IMG/VR virus record: IMGVR_UViG_2778261535_000004
Span: 1 to 7,270 of that record
Source: a virus
Taxonomy: Duplodnaviria; Heunggongvirae; Uroviricota; Caudoviricetes
Length of the DNA stretch: 7,270 nt
Strand: one strand, 5' to 3'
Positions 1-7,270 of this stretch are shown here, piece after piece (the stretch's first letter is position 1; the number at the start of each line of letters is the position of its first letter). The notes below the pieces were generated by a model. It worked only from the letters and a program-made list of their open reading frames with translations. It made no database searches and was not told the origin of the DNA. Made by a program: the position numbers and the translations under genes.

Positions 1-49
1 TAACGGCTGGAAATCATTCAATACTCGCACTATCGGAAGTTCACCAGCC

Positions 50-90
50 AGCCGCAGTATTCTGCCATGACAAGTTGCTGCGGCTTTTTA
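50..90 (+). terminator. Weak candidate plus-strand intrinsic terminator (possibly for a convergent gene upstream of the window)
   Basis: Inverted repeat agccgcag (50-57) / ctgcggct (78-85) followed by ttttt (85-89). The loop is 20 nt, so the hairpin is weak. Confidence 0.25.
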
Positions 91-93
91 TGT

Positions 94-381
94 TTAACGG
101 ATAAACAGCCAGACCAGCAGACACGCCACCACCGGCACAGCAAAATCCATCAGGCTTGCTACATCCCACGCGCGTGGATCAAAACCGCCCCACCACGGCA
201 TATTCATGCGCTTGCCATGCCCGAACATTTCAATCCAGCGATATTCTGCCTGGGTGTGTTCACGCGCAATGAAGAACGTACAACCGGCTATCGCTCCGTA
301 AGCCCAGTTCCCGGTAAAAAGACCAATCAGTAGCTGCGCAGCCACAGCACAAAGAGCATGAAGGAAAGGTGTTATATCCAT
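94..381 (-). CDS. Hypothetical small membrane protein (95 aa, about three predicted hydrophobic helices)
   Basis: ATG at 381..379 preceded by a strong Shine-Dalgarno AGGAGG (plus 386-391), 13 nt after the stop of the preceding gene. Hydrophobic stretches FLHALCAVAAQLLIGLFTG, WAYGAIAGCTFFIA and VASLMDFAVPVVACLLVWLFI. Stop TAA at 96..94. Confidence 0.55.
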   Translation of the reverse strand: MDITPFLHALCAVAAQLLIGLFTGNWAYGAIAGCTFFIAREHTQAEYRWIEMFGHGKRMNMPWWGGFDPRAWDVASLMDFAVPVVACLLVWLFIR

Positions 382-385
382 TACT

Positions 386-391
386 CCTCCT
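386..391 (-). promoter_or_regulatory. Shine-Dalgarno sequence (AGGAGG) of the 95-aa membrane protein gene
   Basis: Minus strand reads TGA-TAAAGGAGGAGTA-ATG; a near-consensus ribosome-binding site a few nt upstream of the ATG. It supports the minus-strand ORF over the overlapping plus-strand ORF 67..333. Confidence 0.6.
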
Positions 392-394
392 TTA

Positions 395-1096
395 TCAGAT
401 ATCGCTTCGGGAAGTTGATAACAGCTTTAATTCTGACTCAATTTCATCAACTCTTTCAGTCAGTTTCTGGATATGGTGAATCAGTGGAACAACCAGACGT
501 TCGTACATTACACCTTCGGCAACAAGGCCATTGCTGGAAATAGCTTCCGGTGCATCATCTTCGTTAGCTGGTCGCCAGTGTACAAACTGAGGGGCAATTT
601 CTCCTACTTCCTCGGCAATCAATCCGTAGAATCCCCAGTCACGCCTGTCATTTTCGCATTGTGACCTGTACCACACAGGGCGCATCCTGAAAATGAGATC
701 AGCGTGCTCTGAATCTATTGTCTCTACTGAATGTTTATAGCGGATAGACGATGTTGACCGCAGCACAGACGAAATTGCAGGGTCAGGATTAAGATAAAGG
801 TTTGCCGCCGCTGTAGTCGTGGCCAAATTCCATAAATAAAACGCTTCACGACCTGTCAGTGGATAAAAATCTCCGCCATAACGACCACTTTCCAGATCGT
901 TCACTTCCACTTTGTTTTTCAGCTTATTATCAACTTCAGTTTTTGTGTATCTGGTGCTGATATCCTGCTTTGCACTGGTCATATCAGTCTGAAGCGTTGA
1001 TACTTTTCCGTTAATTGAGGAAATATCTTCCTTAGTTTTACTGACATCTCCCTTTAGCGTGGTGATATCTCCTGGAATTACTGTCGATGTAGCCAT
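395..1096 (-). CDS. Tail-fibre-domain protein with C-terminal peptidase S74-type intramolecular chaperone domain (233 aa)
   Basis: ATG at 1096..1094 with GAGGGAG 5 nt upstream. The C-terminal ~118 aa (from S-S-I-R-Y-K at aa 116-121, then DWGFYGLIAEEVGEIAPQFV...GLVAEGVMYERLVVPLIHHIQKLTERVDEIESEL) fit the pattern of the autoproteolytic chaperone domain of phage endosialidases and tail fibres (Ser-Lys dyad 5 residues apart, hydrophobic core, terminal coiled coil). The N-terminal ~115 aa are Ser/Thr/Lys-rich and fibre-like. Confidence 0.7.
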   Translation of the reverse strand: MATSTVIPGDITTLKGDVSKTKEDISSINGKVSTLQTDMTSAKQDISTRYTKTEVDNKLKNKVEVNDLESGRYGGDFYPLTGREAFYLWNLATTTAAANLYLNPDPAISSVLRSTSSIRYKHSVETIDSEHADLIFRMRPVWYRSQCENDRRDWGFYGLIAEEVGEIAPQFVHWRPANEDDAPEAISSNGLVAEGVMYERLVVPLIHHIQKLTERVDEIESELKLLSTSRSDI

Positions 1097-1105
1097 TTGT
1101 CTCCC

Positions 1106-1387
1106 TCACATCCAGCCACGAAGTTGATGCTCAACAACAACCGCGTATTTATCGAATATTGACGATTTTTTTGCATCATTAATGATGCGCACGTTTACAA
1201 AATATCCGTCTTCCTTAACACATACCGGTTCGCCATCTTCAGTCAGTTCTCCGGTTTCTTTGTACACGTTACCTATCACGTCAATAAGAATATCATCCTG
1301 CATCGTCTCGTCGTCATAATAGCCAGTGCTATCCATAAAGGCCGAAAAGTCGGCCCTGTCGGCAAATTTGAGGGTTAAGTCTCGCAT
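1106..1387 (-). CDS. Hypothetical small acidic protein (93 aa), translationally coupled to the tail fibre gene
   Basis: ATG at 1387..1385 overlaps the fibre stop (TAATG, 1-nt overlap). Product is strongly acidic (about 20 D/E against 10 K/R). Stop TGA at 1108..1106 lies 9 nt before the next start. No family recognised from sequence alone. Confidence 0.6.
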   Translation of the reverse strand: MRDLTLKFADRADFSAFMDSTGYYDDETMQDDILIDVIGNVYKETGELTEDGEPVCVKEDGYFVNVRIINDAKKSSIFDKYAVVVEHQLRGWM

Positions 1388-3783
1388 TATATTTTTTCTC
1401 CCTGCTGCGCTGCTGTTAATTCCCTGTGCCAGATACGCAAATTTCGGACGTGCCCGAACAGATGGCGGCTGCCACTGGACGCCTTTCCACCGATAGTGAT
1501 GAATCCACCAGTGTACTTCTGATTTTGATATGCTGAAGTTGTCAATGCCCCGAAAACACCATTGACAACAACTTGCAACCTTCTGTCTTCCGAAAATAAA
1601 AAACCAACGATATTATGGCGCTTAGTTCTTGCAAGAGTACTATTATACTCTTTAATGGCATTTGAGTCGCCGTTTGTGATTATCGCTTTATTACCACGAG
1701 TAGCAAAACCAAGGTACATATAACTTTGATTTATTATATCTGTGGAATCTCCCGTTGTTGTTATATCCAGAATCCTTGCTCCACCAGTAATATTAGGCAT
1801 AAAGCCAGGTTCCCATAGTGTATTTACTTCAACAAGACAACTTATTGCAGGAGTTGACCAGTTTAATTTTACAGGGACAGTAACCATATCACTGGCTCTT
1901 GTTGCACCAGTTCCCGACGTAATGATAAATGATGACGCATGAGTTCCCTTTTCAAACTGAGGGGTGGTCATCATTATCTGGTCTCCGGCCTGTATGGAGC
2001 GCCCGTCCGCAGCTATCTCAAAACGAGCGTGAATACTTTTCGGTTCTGGTGATTTATATGTAAATTCGATGCGTAACCATCCGTTAGCTTCTCTGTATAT
2101 GACATGATTGACAGCATCCTCACCATTCGGAATTTTTAATATTTCTCCGGTGCCGCAATCTATATATGACTCAGCAACCAGTGTGTTGCTTGTTCCGTCA
2201 TCGTTCACATAAGCTACGCGAGGTCTGATTAATATATCAGTCCCTTTAACACGGCACGAAAGTGTAACTGATTCATTTGCATCAACACTGATTACACGGG
2301 GATAACCACTCGTAATTAATGTCGCCCGGCCATCCAACGGAGTTCCCGTAACCGTGAATGTTCCATATGTAAACCCATACCCGTCAGTTTCACTAGTCAC
2401 CGATAATGCAGATTTCAGATAATTCCATAAGGATGGTGTATTACTATAATAAAGTGTGTTTGTTCTCTGCCCCTCTATTAACAACCCCATTTTTTCAAAT
2501 CTGGGTTCATCTACAGACGCAATACAAAGCCCCCCGGATTTATCAATATATGTCGCTTCAGATGCCCGCTTAAACTTAACAATCTTGTCGCCAGGCATTA
2601 TTATTTCATCATCACCAATAACAATCTTTTTATATGATGGCGAAAAGCCCGTAATCATATCCAGTGAATCGTTAAACGGTATCCACACATCAGGCAGCGG
2701 TTGTAAGACATATTTATACGGCTCTGCTGCCTGGCTTGCATACTCTCTGGCTGCATCTTCACTTGCTTTAGCTGCCGTCTGGCTTGCTGCCGATGCTTTC
2801 GCTGAGTTCGCAGCCGCTGTTTCGCTCACCTTTGCGTTGGTTTCACTGGTTTTTGCTGCTTTTTGGCTGTTGGCTGATGCAGTGGCAGAAGCAGCCGCCG
2901 CGCTTGCAGAACCAGCTGCGGCATTCTCGCTTTGGGCTGCTGCATCCTGACTGTTTTTCGCCGCAGTTTCGCTGGCTTTGGCATTCGTTTCGCTGGTCTT
3001 CGCTGCCGTCTGGCTGGACTTTGCGTTAGTTTCACTCGTCTTCGCAGCTTTCTGGCTGTTAGCCGCGGCAGTTGCTGATCCAGCTGCTGAAGTCGCAGAA
3101 CCAGCTGCGGCACTCTCGCTTTCAGCTGCTGCATCCTGACTGCTTTTCGCCGCAGTTTCACTGGCTTTGGCATTCGTTTCGCTGGTTTTCGCTGCCGTCT
3201 GGCTGGACTTTGCGTTGGTTTCGCTCGTCTTTGCGGCTGTCTCGCTATTTTTCGCGTTGGTTTCTGATTTTTTGGCTGCTGTCGCGGAGTTTGCCGATGC
3301 AGTCTTTGAGGTCGCTGCCGCCTGTGCACTATTAGCTGCATTCGTTTCTGAGGTTTTCGCCGCGTTCTTTGATGATGCCGCTGCAGTTTCGGATTTCTTT
3401 GCCGCCGCTGCGCTCTGAGAGGCGGCTTCGGCGTTGCGTGCCACTTCTTCCACCATTGCCTCAAAACGACGCAATGCCTCCGGCATGACATCATCTTCCG
3501 TCATGGCACCGAGAAAATCATTCAGCGTACCTGGTCTGGAGCCTTCATAGACGGTAATGGTCCCGGCATGTGAAGGCGGAAAACCTTCAACCAGCAGGGT
3601 GACGCTGTACTGGCCATACTCAACATCCATGCTGTAACGTCCGGCTTCATCCGGATTTTCAGAAGCCACCGTGTTCACCAGTACCGTGGTGCTGTTACGC
3701 TTTGCCTTCAGTTGAATAGTGCAGTTCTGTATTGGTTTTCCCGCACCATCTTTCAGCACACCTGAGATTTTTACTGCTGCCAT
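1387..3783 (-). CDS. stf: Side tail fibre protein, mosaic: lambda-Stf-like N-terminal domain, Ala/Ser/Thr repeat shaft, non-lambda distal domain ending in a LamG-like jellyroll motif (~798 aa from the ATG)
   Basis: ORF 1387..3789 starts with GTG-GAT-ATG; the ATG at 3783..3781 has GGAG about 5 nt upstream and is the likelier start, giving MAAVKISGVLKDGAGKPIQNCTIQLKAKRNSTTV..., which resembles the lambda Stf N-terminus. Residues ~121-347 are AAKTSETNAK-type repeats. The C-terminus ends ...GGFITIGGKASSGSRHLFGHVRNLRIWHRELTAAQ, matching the conserved last strand of LamG-like/concanavalin-A-like domains (F-G-x-I/V-D/R-x-V/L-R-I-Y/W-x-R-x-L-T/S-x-x-E/Q). Stop TAA at 1389..1387. Confidence 0.85.
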   Translation of the reverse strand: MAAVKISGVLKDGAGKPIQNCTIQLKAKRNSTTVLVNTVASENPDEAGRYSMDVEYGQYSVTLLVEGFPPSHAGTITVYEGSRPGTLNDFLGAMTEDDVMPEALRRFEAMVEEVARNAEAASQSAAAAKKSETAAASSKNAAKTSETNAANSAQAAATSKTASANSATAAKKSETNAKNSETAAKTSETNAKSSQTAAKTSETNAKASETAAKSSQDAAAESESAAAGSATSAAGSATAAANSQKAAKTSETNAKSSQTAAKTSETNAKASETAAKNSQDAAAQSENAAAGSASAAAASATASANSQKAAKTSETNAKVSETAAANSAKASAASQTAAKASEDAAREYASQAAEPYKYVLQPLPDVWIPFNDSLDMITGFSPSYKKIVIGDDEIIMPGDKIVKFKRASEATYIDKSGGLCIASVDEPRFEKMGLLIEGQRTNTLYYSNTPSLWNYLKSALSVTSETDGYGFTYGTFTVTGTPLDGRATLITSGYPRVISVDANESVTLSCRVKGTDILIRPRVAYVNDDGTSNTLVAESYIDCGTGEILKIPNGEDAVNHVIYREANGWLRIEFTYKSPEPKSIHARFEIAADGRSIQAGDQIMMTTPQFEKGTHASSFIITSGTGATRASDMVTVPVKLNWSTPAISCLVEVNTLWEPGFMPNITGGARILDITTTGDSTDIINQSYMYLGFATRGNKAIITNGDSNAIKEYNSTLARTKRHNIVGFLFSEDRRLQVVVNGVFGALTTSAYQNQKYTGGFITIGGKASSGSRHLFGHVRNLRIWHRELTAAQQGEKI
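2749..3429 (-). repeat. In-frame low-complexity Ala/Ser/Thr-rich repeat region of the tail fibre shaft (about aa 121-347)
   Basis: Translation is dominated by reiterated AAKTSETNAK / SQTAAKTSETNAKASETAAK motifs; the DNA is reiterated GCN/ACN/TCN-rich sequence. It ends at ...KASEDAAREY (about 2740-2757). Confidence 0.8.
2790..3270 (-). repeat. Tandem direct repeat with 189-bp (63-codon) period, about 2.5 copies, inside the fibre shaft
   Basis: Plus-strand block starting 'gcagaaccagctgcggcattctcgctttgggctgctgcatcctgactg...' at 2906 recurs at 3095 ('gcagaaccagctgcggcactctcgctttcagctgctgcatcctgactg...') with near-identity for ~150 bp; a partial further copy flanks it. Protein-level repeat NSQKAAKTSETNAKSSQTAAKTSETNAKASETAAK(S/N)SQDAAA(E/Q)SE(S/N)AAAGSA... 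Confidence 0.75.
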
Positions 3784-3794
3784 ATCCACTCCAC

Positions 3795-4516: not shown

Positions 4517-7270
4517 TCAACGGATACTGATACCGGAAGCAGCTTTTTTGGTCACAATCACCGTACAGTCTGTGATGTTACCTGCGCCCTGATTGCCTTT
4601 CTGGAAAATCTTAAACTCCAGAGTGACGCTACCACCACCACTCGGCATATCAATAACCGCACTGTAACTACCGGGAATGGCTCCTTTAGTTTCTCTGGAT
4701 GCGATTAATACGCCATTTTTGCGAACTTCAAAACCATAACCCGTGTATCGCGTACCTCCCGGGTTATTACCGCTCCCCGGATCGTCATACGCCACACCGT
4801 TAAAAATAATGGGCGGAATAATAATCTGGCGGTCAAAGTTATGATCATCGTAAATGGTGACTGTAACCGTCCCGTTTGGTGTTTCCGTGTTACCCCACGT
4901 ACCAGCCTTTTTCGGAAATGGTTTGGATACAGTTTTAACGAAGTCACCTCTGACCTGGTTCGCCTCCAGCATGCCCTTAATCGTACAGTTTTCATTTACC
5001 GTGACGTTGTTGAGCGTCCCGGAGTTCGCATTCACGTTACCGCTGATATCGGCATTTTTCGCCGTCAGCCGCCCGTCCGGTGTCAGGGAAAATGCCGGAG
5101 GATTACCGCCGCTGGTAATGGTGGGAGCCGTCAGATACTTCAGGAACACTTCGTTCATGAATATCTGGTTGCCCTGCGCCACAAACATCGGCGTTTCATT
5201 CCCGTTTGCCGGGTCAATAAACGCGATACGGTTAGCGGCAACCAGGAACTGGCTCAGTTTGCCTTCCTCCGTATCCTCCATGCTGAGGCCAAGCCCCGCG
5301 ACATAATGCCTGCCGTCTTCGGTCTGCTCAATTTTGACGCCCCACATGGCATTCCATTTATCGTTGGCGTCTTTCCACTCTTTCGAAAACTCCTCCAGTT
5401 TGCTGGCGTTATCCTCCGTCAGCTCGACTTTTTCCAGCAGCTCCTTGCCGAGATGGGATTCGGTTATCTGGCCTTTGAAAAAATCCAGGTAACCTTCCGC
5501 ATCATCGCTCGCCCGACCGACAGCCTCCACGAATGCCGATTTGCCGACGGTGTTCACACTGCGAACGTAAAAATAATAATCATGGCCCGGTTTGATATTG
5601 ATACTGGCGGCTATCCAGTACAGCGCCGTGCCAAGATAGCGGGCTGTGGTTTCAACCTGCCTGATATCCGCAATCCGCTTTTCCGAGAACCAGAACTCAA
5701 ACTGTACAGTCGGATCATAAACCGCAAGATGCGGCGTGGCGGTTATCTGAAAATAGCCCGGCGTCAGCTCAATCCGCGATGGCGCTGCCGGTGCGGCAAT
5801 CCGGAACGATACCGACGCCGGATCGCCCTGCTGCCCCCACGCATTTACCGCCCGGACTGTCAGACTGTAATTTCCCAGAGCCAGCTGCCTGAAGCGGTAT
5901 GTGGTTTCCGTCGTCCGGGCCGTGCTGACCAGCCGCTCACTGCCGTCATCCGCTGCCACGGTCAGGCGAAGCATAAAGCTCACGCCCTTCACCACCTTCG
6001 GCGTATCCCAGCGCGCCAGTACCTGGTATTCCCCGCTGTCTGCGGTGACTTCTGCGGTCAGGTGCTGCACTGCTGGCGGCGTGACACCATTCACCGTGCC
6101 GCTCTGGTCGCCGTCAAAGTGCGCCCCGTTATCCACAATGGCTTCTTTTTCCGGTACATGCTGCACGGCAGTGATGGCATACGTGCCGTCGTCGTTCTCA
6201 CGGATACTCACACAGCGGAACAGGCGCTGGCGCAGCGTCGGCAGCTTCAGCCCCCACACGCTGTATTCAGCAACGCCGTCAGGAACACGGCTCACTTTCA
6301 CCTTCACGCCGTCGGTGACGGACTGGACCTCCACGCTGACCGGATTCCCCTGTCCGTCAACCAGGCTTATCAGCGTGGTGCCGGAGGATGGCAGCGTGAT
6401 TTCACGGTCGAGCGTCAGTGTCCGCGTCTGGCTGTTCACCGCCAGCACGCGCCCGCCGATGCTGATACCCGCATAGTCATCATCACAGATTTCAATGACA
6501 TCGCCCGGTACATGGCGAAGCCCTTCTGCACCCACGCTGAAGTCCACGGTCTGCGTTTCCAGCAGCTCCGTTTTAATCAGCCACAGCCCGGCGCGGTGTG
6601 CCTGCCCCCGGCTGGTACAGCCAAAGGCATCCATCTTCGTGACGTTACGACCGTAACGGAGAATGGCCTGCGTATCTTCAACAAGCTCTGTCGCCGTCTC
6701 CCAGCCGTTATTCGGGTCAATCCAGTTCACCTCAACGGCATTATGGCGGTCCTTCAGGGCGCTGAAGCTGTAGCGGAACGGCGCGCCATCATCCGGCATC
6801 ACCACATTACTGCGGTTATAGGTCCACACCTTATCCGACGGTCGGTCCTGCACGAACGTCAGCGTCTGCCCGTTCCATACCGGCATACAGCGCATCGCCG
6901 AGCAGAAATCACTGAGAACATCCCACGCCTTACGCTGTGTGGTCAGGTAGGCATTACAGGTGATGCGCGGCTCCGTGCCACCAAAGCCATCCGGCACCGA
7001 CTGGTCGCAATTCTGGCCGATGACATACAGCGCCCATTTGTCCACATCCGCCGCACCGAGACGCTTCCCCATGCCGTAGCGCGGATGGGTCAGCATATCC
7101 CACAGACACCAGGCCATGTTGTTGCTGTATGCCGGTTTAAACGTCCCGTCCCAGATACCGCTGTATTGCCGCGTCTGCGGGTTATAGTTCGACGGCACCT
7201 GCAGAATGCGCCCGCGAAGATGATAATTACGGCTCACCTGCTGGCTGCCGAACTGCTCCGAATCCACCTG
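4517..7270 (-). CDS. J: Host specificity protein J (tail tip / central tail fibre), C-terminal 916 aa; 5' end lies beyond the window
   Basis: Long minus-strand ORF open to the window edge, stop TGA at 4519..4517. Translation ([45 protein letters not shown]... [17 protein letters not shown]...) is recognisable as lambda gpJ over most of its length; the last ~150 aa are more divergent. Position immediately upstream of lom matches the lambda order J-lom-stf. Confidence 0.9.

What the first reader, a model, noticed from the sequence alone, without database searches (positions are those of the whole stretch)
94..381. Small 3-helix membrane protein with a strong ribosome-binding site at the end of the fibre operon
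A 95-aa protein with three hydrophobic helices is not a virion structural component but is encoded in the same tightly spaced gene string, 13 nt after the S74 gene and behind a near-consensus AGGAGG. Small membrane proteins at the distal end of tail-fibre modules are plausible lysogenic-conversion or superinfection-exclusion factors, but the function here is unknown and I did not recognise the family.
Basis: inference. Interest (0 to 1): 0.5.

Follow-up and report, generated by a model that had tools for sequence, protein, structure and literature searches.

The report
Conserved small membrane protein after fibre genes
The 95-codon gene is real and encodes a highly conserved small inner-membrane protein of unknown function that phages of many types carry directly after their receptor-binding (tail fibre or spike) genes, which makes it a good candidate for a factor that changes how infected or lysogenic cells meet further phages.

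Summary
Window 94-381 (minus strand) is a genuine protein-coding gene. It starts 13 nt after the S74 fibre gene, behind an AGGAGG. Codon-position variation is 12/6/35 and no allele has a stop. The overlapping plus-strand ORF is spurious.

The protein matches PHROG family phrog_1443 (function unknown) and has no Pfam, NCBIfam, PADLOC or PDB relative. AlphaFold2 gives a confident three-helix bundle (pLDDT 94). The family core is H8, R40-E41-x-x-Q44-A45-E46-Y47-R48, W72, D79 and P83.

The family comprises 443 clusters at 50% identity, and the gene is in 35% of complete E. coli genomes. In lambdoid, P2/HP1-like and P22-like phages and in environmental phages it lies just after receptor-binding genes of unrelated types. 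Standalone chromosomal copies (Aeromonas, Leclercia, alphaproteobacteria) are also under purifying selection.

The best reading, which is inference and not demonstration, is a non-virion accessory protein at the inner membrane. It would act on a conserved host process tied to phage entry or receptor display. It is not homologous to any known exclusion or conversion protein. In this window it has no promoter or terminator of its own, so it looks co-transcribed with the late genes.

Interest is moderate.

The parts
94..381 (-). Gene for the 95-aa small membrane protein (family phrog_1443); last gene of the late/fibre operon
382..394 (-). 13-nt intergenic spacer holding the ribosome-binding site (AGGAGG at 386-391, 4 nt before the ATG)
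   Evidence: The same AAAGGAGG(A/C)GTAATG is found in 44 of the related loci.
313..372 (-). Helix 1 (residues 4-23), with near-invariant His8 and conserved Ala12/Gln16 on one face
223..306 (-). Helix 2 (residues 26-53): a moderately hydrophobic membrane part (26-39) that continues as an amphipathic helix carrying the family signature R40-E41-x-x-Q44-A45-E46-Y47-R48-x-I50 (window 232-264)
163..222 (-). Conserved Trp/Gly-rich loop (residues 54-73: G-x-G-K-R-x-N-M-P-W-W-G-G-F-D-x-R-x-W)
100..162 (-). Helix 3 (residues 74-94), with conserved Ser76, Asp79 and Pro83; the most hydrophobic segment
395..1096 (-). Upstream neighbour: 233-aa fibre-type protein with a Peptidase_S74 (intramolecular chaperone) domain
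1106..1387 (-). 93-aa protein of unknown function (phrog_1361) between the Stf-like fibre gene and the S74 gene
1387..3789 (-). 800-aa Stf-like side tail fibre (prophage tail fibre N-terminal domain), with a 189-nt tandem repeat at 2830-3246
67..333 (+). Overlapping plus-strand ORF; not a gene
   Evidence: No family hit. Interrupted by stop codons in 13 of 23 alleles, and its codon-position pattern (30/5/12) mirrors the minus-strand frame.

Best explanation
Window 94-381 encodes a real, translated, non-enzymatically-annotated small inner-membrane protein of the uncharacterised family phrog_1443.

Shown by the analyses:
- It folds as a compact three-helix bundle.
- Each helix has one conserved face.
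- A conserved polar cluster (His8, Arg40/Glu41, Gln44, Glu46, Asp79) lies near one membrane face.
- That cluster is followed by an invariant Trp/Gly-rich loop.
- It is the terminal gene of the receptor-binding-protein (RBP) module.
- In this prophage it has no detectable promoter or terminator of its own.

Inferred from the charge distribution: the N-terminus and the conserved loop face the cytoplasm and the C-terminus faces the periplasm.

Inferred from the lack of its own signals: in this prophage it is made together with the late fibre genes.

Most likely mechanism (inference): it is an accessory factor and not a virion part. It docks onto, or acts on, a conserved host inner-membrane process that governs phage entry or display of surface receptors. 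Examples are genome translocation across the inner membrane, or lipid-carrier-dependent synthesis of surface glycans. An infected or lysogenic cell would then stop being a productive target for further phage.

The protein stays constant while the RBPs upstream vary. It therefore cannot be a blocker of one particular receptor and must act on a step common to many hosts.
For: Real gene under purifying selection.

Confident fold and conserved polar core.

Charge bias: about 6.5 Lys/Arg on the N-tail plus loop side against 0.9 on the other side.

Position directly after RBP genes of unrelated kinds:
- In 76 of 82 E. coli and viral loci it follows one of two S74 fibre types at 9-45 nt; in the other 6 it follows Stf plus a 92-aa protein.
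- Leclercia P2/HP1-like prophage: it abuts a 939-aa S74 fibre.
- Comamonas: after a 2520-aa J-like protein.
- phiHAP-1: after the fibre assembly gene.
- P22-like Gally and 611R6: after the tailspike.
- Two Burkholderiales prophages: between a DGR-diversified variable gene and avd.
- Environmental viral contigs: one of the two nearest upstream genes belongs to a cluster whose representative matched tail/spike/fibre PHROG families in 57 of 75 loci. 14 of 43 non-redundant neighbours carry a pectate-lyase-type beta-helix.

Host-beneficial or host-neutral, not phage-only: syntenic chromosomal copies in Aeromonas have dN/dS 0.15-0.19, and there are standalone copies in Leclercia and alphaproteobacteria.

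Prevalence: 1886 of 5426 complete E. coli genomes, median 2 copies.

Conversion-locus position, and an OafA neighbour in P22-like phages (PMC8787464).
Against: - No functional data exist for any member. Literature searches found nothing.
- No homology to any known exclusion, conversion or defence protein.
- No promoter or terminator of its own here or in phage 21, so expression from the repressed prophage is not supported.
- High sequence conservation is unusual for proteins that are in an arms race with incoming phages.
- Some copies are not next to RBP genes. In Aeromonas phage PS1 it follows a helicase/terminase-like gene, and in a Desulfovibrio prophage it precedes a Mu-type portal.
- Topology is unsettled. 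TMHMM, as recorded in the phage 21 entry, gives 2 TMDs, N-in and C-in. The Aeromonas C-tails are Arg-rich.
Confidence: 0.38

Rival explanations
1. Generic cellular small membrane protein (a tiny enzyme, ion or lipid binder, or a regulator of a membrane complex) with no phage-specific role. Phages carry it as cargo. Its position after RBP genes is kept because the conserved gene, together with the conserved S74 3' end, acts as a homology anchor for swapping fibre cassettes by recombination.
For: - Standalone chromosomal copies with no shared neighbours across lineages, under purifying selection.
- A conserved His/Glu/Gln/Asp/Arg cluster near the membrane face that looks like a binding or catalytic site.
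- In Gally the similarity to the window runs about 75 nt into the 3' end of an S74 gene. In 611R6 a 38-aa fibre fragment precedes the gene.
- In E. coli the same gene lies downstream of three different fibre configurations.
Against: - A passive anchor does not explain retention after non-S74 RBPs in unrelated phages: beta-helix tailspikes, a DGR target, and a fibre assembly gene.
- It does not explain the strong purifying selection on phage-borne alleles.
- No fusion to, or operon with, any enzyme or transporter was seen. All 150 listed representatives are short proteins, at most 146 aa.
Confidence: 0.25
2. Factor that modifies or down-regulates surface glycans, in the manner of seroconversion proteins. 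From the inner membrane it would inhibit or redirect a conserved step of O-antigen, capsule or ECA assembly. This would change the receptor recognised by glycan-binding fibres and spikes.
For: - The upstream RBPs are often glycan-directed: pectate-lyase beta-helix in 14 of 43, plus S74/endosialidase-type, GDSL esterase and Peptidase_G2 domains.
- It occupies the tailspike-integrase conversion slot in P22-like phages, once beside an OafA O-acetylase.
- There is precedent for small membrane inhibitors next to tailspike genes: epsilon15 Iap (PMC8787464).
Against: - No similarity to Iap or to epsilon15 gp23 (hhalign probability below 1%), and no hit to any Pfam family, glycan-modifying families included.
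- Known conversion genes have their own promoters and terminators and are often on the opposite strand. This gene does not and is not.
- It is present in lambdoid phages isolated on E. coli K-12 and C; from my own knowledge, those strains lack O-antigen.
Confidence: 0.2
3. Morphogenetic helper of the fibre or spike: a membrane-anchored assembly or quality-control factor. This would be analogous in position to the tail-fibre assembly chaperones that are encoded just after fibre genes.
For: - It lies immediately downstream of RBP genes and is translationally close-coupled to them, with gaps of 9-45 nt or adjacent stop and start codons.
- In several phages it is embedded inside structural operons.
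Against: - Chromosomal copies are maintained without any phage genes nearby.
- The same protein follows structurally unrelated RBPs.
- S74-type fibres carry their own intramolecular chaperone (Pfam description).
- From my own knowledge, the known fibre chaperones are soluble proteins.
Confidence: 0.1
4. Lysis-related membrane protein (a holin, antiholin or lysis-timing factor), as with the small holin that follows the tail fibre gene in T7-like phages (the T7 example is from my own knowledge).
For: - Its size and helix count resemble class I holins.
- One of 74 members gave a weak hit to a putative holin family, E = 0.0036.
- Late co-expression is inferred.
Against: - It has no charged C-terminal tail: mean length 7 residues with 0.7 Lys/Arg.
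- No endolysin or spanin gene lies next to it in the window or in the loci examined.
- It has a long, invariant loop, and conservation reaches 59% identity across orders. From my own knowledge, that is atypical for holins.
- Stable chromosomal copies do not fit a lethal pore-former.
Confidence: 0.05

Closest known systems
PHROG family phrog_1443 (unknown function)
   Same: Full-length profile match (residues 1-94 against positions 1-94 of 97, E = 6e-58). This is the family the protein belongs to.
   Different: The family has no annotation, no Pfam or NCBIfam counterpart and no solved or annotated structure.
Cor (phi80/N15/mEp phages) and Llp (T5): exclusion proteins encoded next to receptor-binding genes (from my own knowledge)
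   Same: A small envelope protein encoded beside the RBP gene. The idea of blocking re-infection is the same.
   Different: - Those are outer-membrane lipoproteins that block one specific receptor (FhuA).
- Here a lipobox-like IAGC exists only in the enteric clade: 61 of 114 close relatives against 5 of 125 family representatives. It rarely comes with a basic N-tail.
- The protein is a helical membrane bundle.
- It does not co-vary with the RBP.
Iap, the alpha-polymerase inhibitor of Salmonella phage epsilon15 (and D3): small membrane seroconversion proteins near the tailspike gene
   Same: A small hydrophobic protein encoded near a glycan-binding tailspike gene in a temperate phage (PMC8787464).
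   Different: - No sequence or profile similarity.
- Iap has two TMDs and is 66 aa.
- It lies on the opposite strand behind a terminator, together with a Wzy-like polymerase gene.
Inner-membrane superinfection-exclusion proteins: T4 Imm, P22 SieA, HK97 gp15 (from my own knowledge, plus PMC10883804)
   Same: A small phage-encoded inner-membrane protein that is not a virion part. A block of genome entry is one of the mechanisms proposed here.
   Different: - No hit to any family other than phrog_1443 and two other PHROG families, both also of unknown function, in Pfam, PHROGs or PADLOC.
- From my own knowledge, those genes are not systematically linked to RBP genes and are not conserved across bacterial orders.
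P2 Fun(Z): lysogenic-conversion gene between the fibre-assembly gene G and the sheath gene FI
   Same: In phiHAP-1 the homolog occupies the same slot, between the fibre assembly gene and the sheath gene.
   Different: Fun(Z) is a 528-aa protein on the opposite strand, lying between the V-operon terminator and the F-operon promoter.

Membership tests
phrog_1443 | Significant full-length match to the family profile | tested here: met
   E = 6.2e-58, residues 1-94 against profile positions 1-94 of 97
Moron (autonomous accessory cassette in a prophage late region) | Own promoter upstream and own terminator downstream | tested here: not met
   No sigma-70-like site on the gene's strand and no terminator in window 1-1400. 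None in phage 21 either. Consensus scans only. In Gally a terminator-like hairpin and a promoter-like site do precede the gene.
Moron (autonomous accessory cassette in a prophage late region) | Base composition different from the flanking phage genes | tested here: inconclusive
   GC is about 0.49-0.52 over the gene against 0.39-0.48 in the adjacent fibre genes. The difference is modest.
Cor/Llp-type exclusion lipoproteins | Lipoprotein signal peptide with a lipobox Cys, conserved in the family | tested here: not met
   A lipobox-like motif is at that position in 5 of 125 family representatives. Motif plus basic N-tail occurs in 1 of 125. Position 34 is Cys in only 13% of representatives.
Cor/Llp-type exclusion lipoproteins | Co-variation with the cognate receptor-binding protein | tested here: not met
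   The same protein follows unrelated RBPs
Iap-type seroconversion inhibitors (epsilon15) | Sequence or profile similarity to Iap | tested here: not met
   hhalign probability 0.06%
Iap-type seroconversion inhibitors (epsilon15) | Change of O-antigen structure on expression | not testable with these tools
   Needs LPS profiling of strains that express the gene
Class I holins | Three transmembrane helices | tested here: inconclusive
   AF2 gives three helices. Hydropathy supports two strong and one weak. The TMHMM note in the phage 21 record says 2 TMDs.
Class I holins | Highly charged cytoplasmic C-terminal tail | tested here: not met
   The C-tail averages 7 residues with 0.7 Lys/Arg. The query ends 1 residue after helix 3.
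Class I holins | Encoded in a lysis cassette next to an endolysin gene | tested here: not met
   The neighbours are fibre genes, then dinI/int, pin, sitABCD or structural genes
Inner-membrane exclusion proteins (Imm, SieA, SieB, HK97 gp15) | Homology to one of these families | tested here: not met
   Pfam, PHROGs and PADLOC return no family other than phrog_1443 and two other PHROG families of unknown function
Inner-membrane exclusion proteins (Imm, SieA, SieB, HK97 gp15) | Blocks genome entry of a superinfecting phage without blocking adsorption | not testable with these tools
   Needs plating, adsorption and DNA-entry assays
Prolipoprotein diacylglyceryl transferase (a label on one Aeromonas UniRef entry) | Match to the Lgt family profile | tested here: not met
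   No Lgt hit among 74 members even at E <= 1. The label was seen.

The most novel reading that the evidence does not exclude
The family is a previously unrecognised, near-universal 'receptor-module companion'. It would be a miniature inner-membrane enzyme or inhibitor, with a His/Glu/Gln/Asp/Arg site at the membrane face, that switches off a conserved host step. Candidates are lipid-carrier-linked glycan assembly and the inner-membrane route of phage genome entry. Phages with any kind of fibre or spike would co-inherit it with the RBP cassette, and some bacteria (Aeromonas, Leclercia, sphingomonads) would have domesticated it as a stand-alone anti-phage or envelope gene.
Probability: 0.15. 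Interest if true: 0.8.

Novelty: new variant of a known kind. Interest (0 to 1): 0.5.

Why it matters
A 95-aa protein present in about a third of complete E. coli genomes, often in several copies, has no assigned function. Its family has 443 clusters at 50% identity across Proteobacteria and their phages. It keeps about 60% identity between E. coli phages and Aeromonas or Comamonas.

It recurs immediately after receptor-binding genes in siphoviruses, myoviruses, podoviruses and a DGR cassette. That is a strong guilt-by-association signal and gives a concrete, cheap experiment. If the protein controls phage entry or receptor display through a conserved host step, it would be a broadly acting exclusion principle. 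That would bear on prophage-mediated immunity and on phage-therapy host range.

If it has no such effect, its linkage to RBP cassettes would still be useful. It would mark the right-hand boundary of fibre modules and be a likely recombination anchor for fibre swapping.

Tried and rejected
- **Plus-strand ORF 67..333 as the real gene:** rejected. It has stops in 13 of 23 alleles, no family hits, and the wrong codon-position pattern.
- **Lipoprotein (Cor/Llp-like), prompted by IAGC at residues 31-34:** rejected as a family trait.
- **The 'Lgt' label on an Aeromonas entry:** unsupported.
- **A specific functional link to the Peptidase_S74 chaperone domain:** rejected. Only 2 of 43 environmental upstream neighbours have S74, while 14 have a beta-helix depolymerase fold.
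- **Homology to epsilon15 Iap or gp23:** none.
- **Homology or analogy of gene type to P2 Fun(Z):** a different kind of gene.
- **Kapi1 hyp24 (between tailspike and integrase) as a homolog:** Kapi1 is not among the 55 records listed (12 further weak matches were not shown), so this is probable but not certain.
- **Sequence or profile search of the PDB:** nothing.
- **Weak Pfam hits to PhoR_N and VirB3 (5 of 74 members each, below cutoffs):** judged to reflect the helical-hairpin architecture and not homology.
- **Position-independent insertion-energy estimates:** all three helices are marginal. The family-wide values are unreliable because of alignment shifts and were not used beyond ranking the helices.
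- **Literature searches for the gene, its SEED/UniRef names or the locus:** nothing specific found.

Full report
**1. What is in the window.**
The 7.27-kb window is the right end of a lambdoid prophage late operon, all on the minus strand:
- a J-type tail-tip protein, cut by the window end;
- an Ail/Lom outer-membrane protein;
- an 800-aa Stf-like side fibre (PF08400);
- a 93-aa protein (phrog_1361);
- a 233-aa fibre-type protein with a Peptidase_S74 chaperone domain;
- the 95-aa ORF of the finding (94-381).

A near-identical prophage (97% over window 1-1382) shows what follows: a convergent dinI-like gene and the integrase next to dusA. So the ORF is the last gene of the operon and of the prophage arm.

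**2.
The ORF starts at an ATG 13 nt after the S74 gene's stop codon. The spacer reads TAAAGGAGGAGTA, with AGGAGG 4 nt before the ATG.

It is a real gene:
- It matches phrog_1443 over its full length (E = 6e-58).
- It has 575 cluster representatives in the large protein collection and 443 clusters at 50% identity in a profile search.
- Among 23 alleles, variable sites fall 12/6/35 by codon position and no allele has a stop.
- The overlapping plus-strand ORF 67-333 carries stops in 13 of 23 alleles and matches nothing.
- dN/dS against other phage alleles is 0.16-0.23.

**3. The protein.**
AlphaFold2, run with a 34-sequence alignment, gives a very confident model (pLDDT 94, pTM 0.79) with three helices at 4-23, 26-53 and 74-94. 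A two-residue turn separates helices 1 and 2, and a 20-residue loop precedes helix 3. Helices 1 and 3 are strongly hydrophobic. The membrane part of helix 2 (26-39) is weaker and continues as an amphipathic helix.

Across the divergent family, the conserved residues are H8 (93%), R40 (99%), E41 (98%), Q44, A45, E46 (96-97%), Y47, R48, I50, R58, P62, W72 (94%), D79 (79%) and P83 (94%). Each helix has one conserved face, and the H8/E41/D79 triad is intact in 90 of 121 representatives. This looks like a packed bundle with a polar site near one membrane face, followed by a Trp/Gly-rich interfacial loop.

Lys/Arg counts are 6.5 on the N-tail plus loop side and 0.9 on the other side. That predicts N-in, loop-in and C-out. 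This is inference. The phage 21 record notes a TMHMM result of 2 TMDs, N-in and C-in, and the Aeromonas C-tails are Arg-rich. The topology therefore needs an experiment.

**4. No known relatives.**
- There are no Pfam, NCBIfam or PADLOC hits.
- A permissive Pfam scan of 74 diverse members gave only sub-threshold hits to two-helix hairpin domains.
- Sequence and profile searches of the PDB found no relative: the only hit, E = 0.37 to a 24-residue stretch, is not significant.
- Sources call it 'hypothetical protein', 'Ybl63' or 'putative membrane protein'. One 'Lgt' label is unsupported.
- All 150 listed representatives are short, at most 146 aa, and no fusion to another domain was seen.

**5. 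Where it occurs.**
The gene alone is found in 1886 of 5426 complete E. coli genomes, with a median of 2 copies and up to 6. It is also in 72 phage records, including phage 21, mEp460-like and lambda-like gut phages, the PhiR panel and P22-like podoviruses. Beyond E. coli it occurs in Aeromonas, Comamonas, Acidovorax, Leclercia, Pantoea, Halomonas, sphingomonads, Chelativorans and Desulfovibrio.

**6. Context: the main result.**
In phages the gene sits immediately after the receptor-binding module, whatever that module is:
- **E. coli and viral loci:** 76 of 82 have one of two different S74 fibre genes 9-45 nt upstream. The other 6 have Stf plus a 92-aa protein (phage 21).
- **Leclercia P2/HP1-like prophage:** it abuts a 939-aa S74 fibre and is followed by more tail genes.
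- **Comamonas:** it follows a 2520-aa J-like protein.
- **Halomonas phage phiHAP-1:** it lies between the fibre-assembly and sheath genes.
- **P22-like Gally and vB_EcoP-611R6:** it lies between the tailspike gene and the integrase gene, and in 611R6 next to an OafA O-acetylase. The Kapi1 paper treats that slot as a candidate seroconversion locus (PMC8787464).
- **Two Burkholderiales prophages:** it lies between the variable gene of a diversity-generating retroelement and avd. The 119-nt VR/TR pair has 11 of 13 mismatches at template adenines.
- **84 environmental viral contigs:** in 57 of 75 informative loci, one of the two nearest upstream genes belongs to a cluster whose representative matched tail/spike/fibre PHROG families. 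Of 43 non-redundant neighbours, 14 carry a pectate-lyase-type beta-helix, 2 carry S74 and 1 carries Peptidase_G2. Others carry GDSL esterase, T7-fibre or endosialidase-N domains.

From general knowledge, RBP genes are a small minority of phage genes. This adjacency is therefore far above what chance would give.

There are exceptions. In Aeromonas phage PS1 the gene follows a helicase/terminase-like gene, and in a Desulfovibrio prophage it precedes a Mu-type portal.

**7. Chromosomal copies.**
- In Aeromonas the gene is syntenic across species (Pirin upstream; RIO1 kinase and lipid A acyltransferases nearby; no phage genes). Its dN/dS there is 0.15-0.19 at dS of about 0.57.
- Leclercia has a copy between an oligopeptidase A gene and a MetE-like gene followed by ABC-transporter genes.
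- Alphaproteobacterial copies follow ligA, AMP nucleosidase or HerA.
- No neighbour is shared between these lineages.

The protein is therefore kept for a function that does not need a phage. That argues against virion-assembly and lysis roles.

**8. Expression signals.**
No promoter-like site on the gene's strand and no terminator were found in the window or in phage 21. In Tritos a short GC hairpin with a T-run lies in the 42-nt gap. In Gally a 9-bp terminator-like hairpin follows the tailspike gene and a promoter-like site precedes this gene. These are consensus scans and are not above the shuffled expectation. The window copy is best read as co-transcribed with the late fibre genes. Independent expression elsewhere is possible.

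**9. Mobility.**
In Gally, similarity to the window extends about 75 nt upstream of the start, into the 3' end of an S74 gene. In 611R6 a 38-aa 'tail fiber' fragment precedes the gene. So the gene moves between phage types together with the conserved end of a fibre gene. It probably serves as the right-hand homology arm for fibre-cassette exchange.

**10. Interpretation.**
*Shown:* this is a real, strongly conserved small membrane protein. It is the terminal gene of the RBP module, it is widespread, and it is not homologous to any characterised protein.

*Inferred:* it is an accessory, non-virion factor at the inner membrane. It acts on a conserved host process tied to phage entry or receptor display. 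The supporting points are:
- the RBP linkage;
- the conversion-locus position in podoviruses;
- the domesticated chromosomal copies;
- the constancy of the protein despite RBP turnover, which excludes a receptor-specific blocker.

I give this 0.38. The rivals are:
- a generic cellular membrane protein carried as cargo or as a recombination anchor (0.25);
- a glycan-pathway modifier in the manner of Iap (0.20);
- a fibre morphogenesis helper (0.10);
- a lysis protein (0.05).

**11. Comparison with known systems.**
By position and type it resembles Cor/Llp, epsilon15 Iap, P2 Fun(Z), T4 Imm, P22 SieA and HK97 gp15. It fails every testable membership criterion for those families. It is a member only of phrog_1443.

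**12. Verdict.**
The gene is not ordinary in the sense of being explained. It is a catalogued but uncharacterised family with an unusually consistent genomic association. Interest is moderate (0.5). It is best filed as a new variant of a known kind, namely RBP-adjacent accessory membrane proteins of phages.

Noticed in passing
L111:3785-7054 (Comamonas nitrativorans) and L112 (Pigmentiphaga humi): A complete diversity-generating retroelement. The variable gene has its VR at 4810-4928. It is followed by the family homolog, a 128-aa avd-like ORF, the TR at 5697-5815 and a reverse transcriptase. 11 of 13 VR/TR mismatches are at TR adenines. The small membrane gene is inserted between the DGR target gene and avd.
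   Followed up: yes
L222:4926-5000 (phage Gally) and L224:3845-3958 (vB_EcoP-611R6): P22-like podoviruses carry remnants of the 3' end of a siphovirus S74 fibre gene just upstream of the small membrane gene. This is a mosaic joint showing that the gene travelled together with the fibre gene's end.
   Followed up: partly
window 395-1387: The fibre module is split in an unusual way. A 93-aa protein of unknown function (phrog_1361) overlaps the stop of the 800-aa Stf-like gene. It is followed by a stand-alone 233-aa protein that is mostly coiled coil plus a Peptidase_S74 autocleaving chaperone domain. After self-cleavage, only about 115 residues would remain in the virion.
   Followed up: no
window 2830-3246: A 189-nt tandem repeat (2.2 copies, 85% matches) inside the Stf-like gene. 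It encodes Ala/Ser/Thr/Lys-rich repeats (…KTSETNAKSSQTAAK…). The long antisense ORFs in this region (for example 2826-3494) are probably by-products of the repeat.
   Followed up: no
L135:4990-8527 (Aeromonas rivipollensis); also L090, L093, L095, L099: A syntenic chromosomal copy of the family in several Aeromonas species, after a Pirin gene and near RIO1-kinase and two lipid A acyltransferase genes. No phage genes are nearby, and dN/dS is 0.15-0.19.
   Followed up: partly
L223:5386-8835 (phage 21): Phage 21 carries a complete sitABCD iron/manganese ABC transporter as cargo, on the opposite strand immediately after the small membrane gene.
   Followed up: no
window 280-291 (residues 31-34, IAGC): A lipobox-like motif inside helix 2. 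It is conserved in the enteric, Aeromonas and Comamonas clade (61 of 114 close relatives) but absent from the wider family (5 of 125), and it usually lacks a basic N-tail. It is probably a coincidence of helix packing (small residues plus Cys), but it may explain the SignalP and 'Lgt' annotations in public records.
   Followed up: yes
L001:5980-6060 and 7384-7500: In the related RefSeq prophage, PGAP annotates tiny 'capsid protein' and 'terminase' pseudogene fragments flanking the fibre-end genes. These look like annotation artefacts and not real remnants.
   Followed up: no
L221:3917-4180 (Aeromonas phage PS1, 237 kb); also AVP1, pAEv1810, PS2, ACP1: Large Aeromonas phages encode an 87-aa relative that matches only the conserved loop and helix 3 (residues 36-88). 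It follows a helicase/terminase-like gene and not an RBP gene. This is an exception to the RBP linkage. These look like large lytic phages, though I did not verify their lifestyle. If they are, the family is not restricted to temperate phages.
   Followed up: partly
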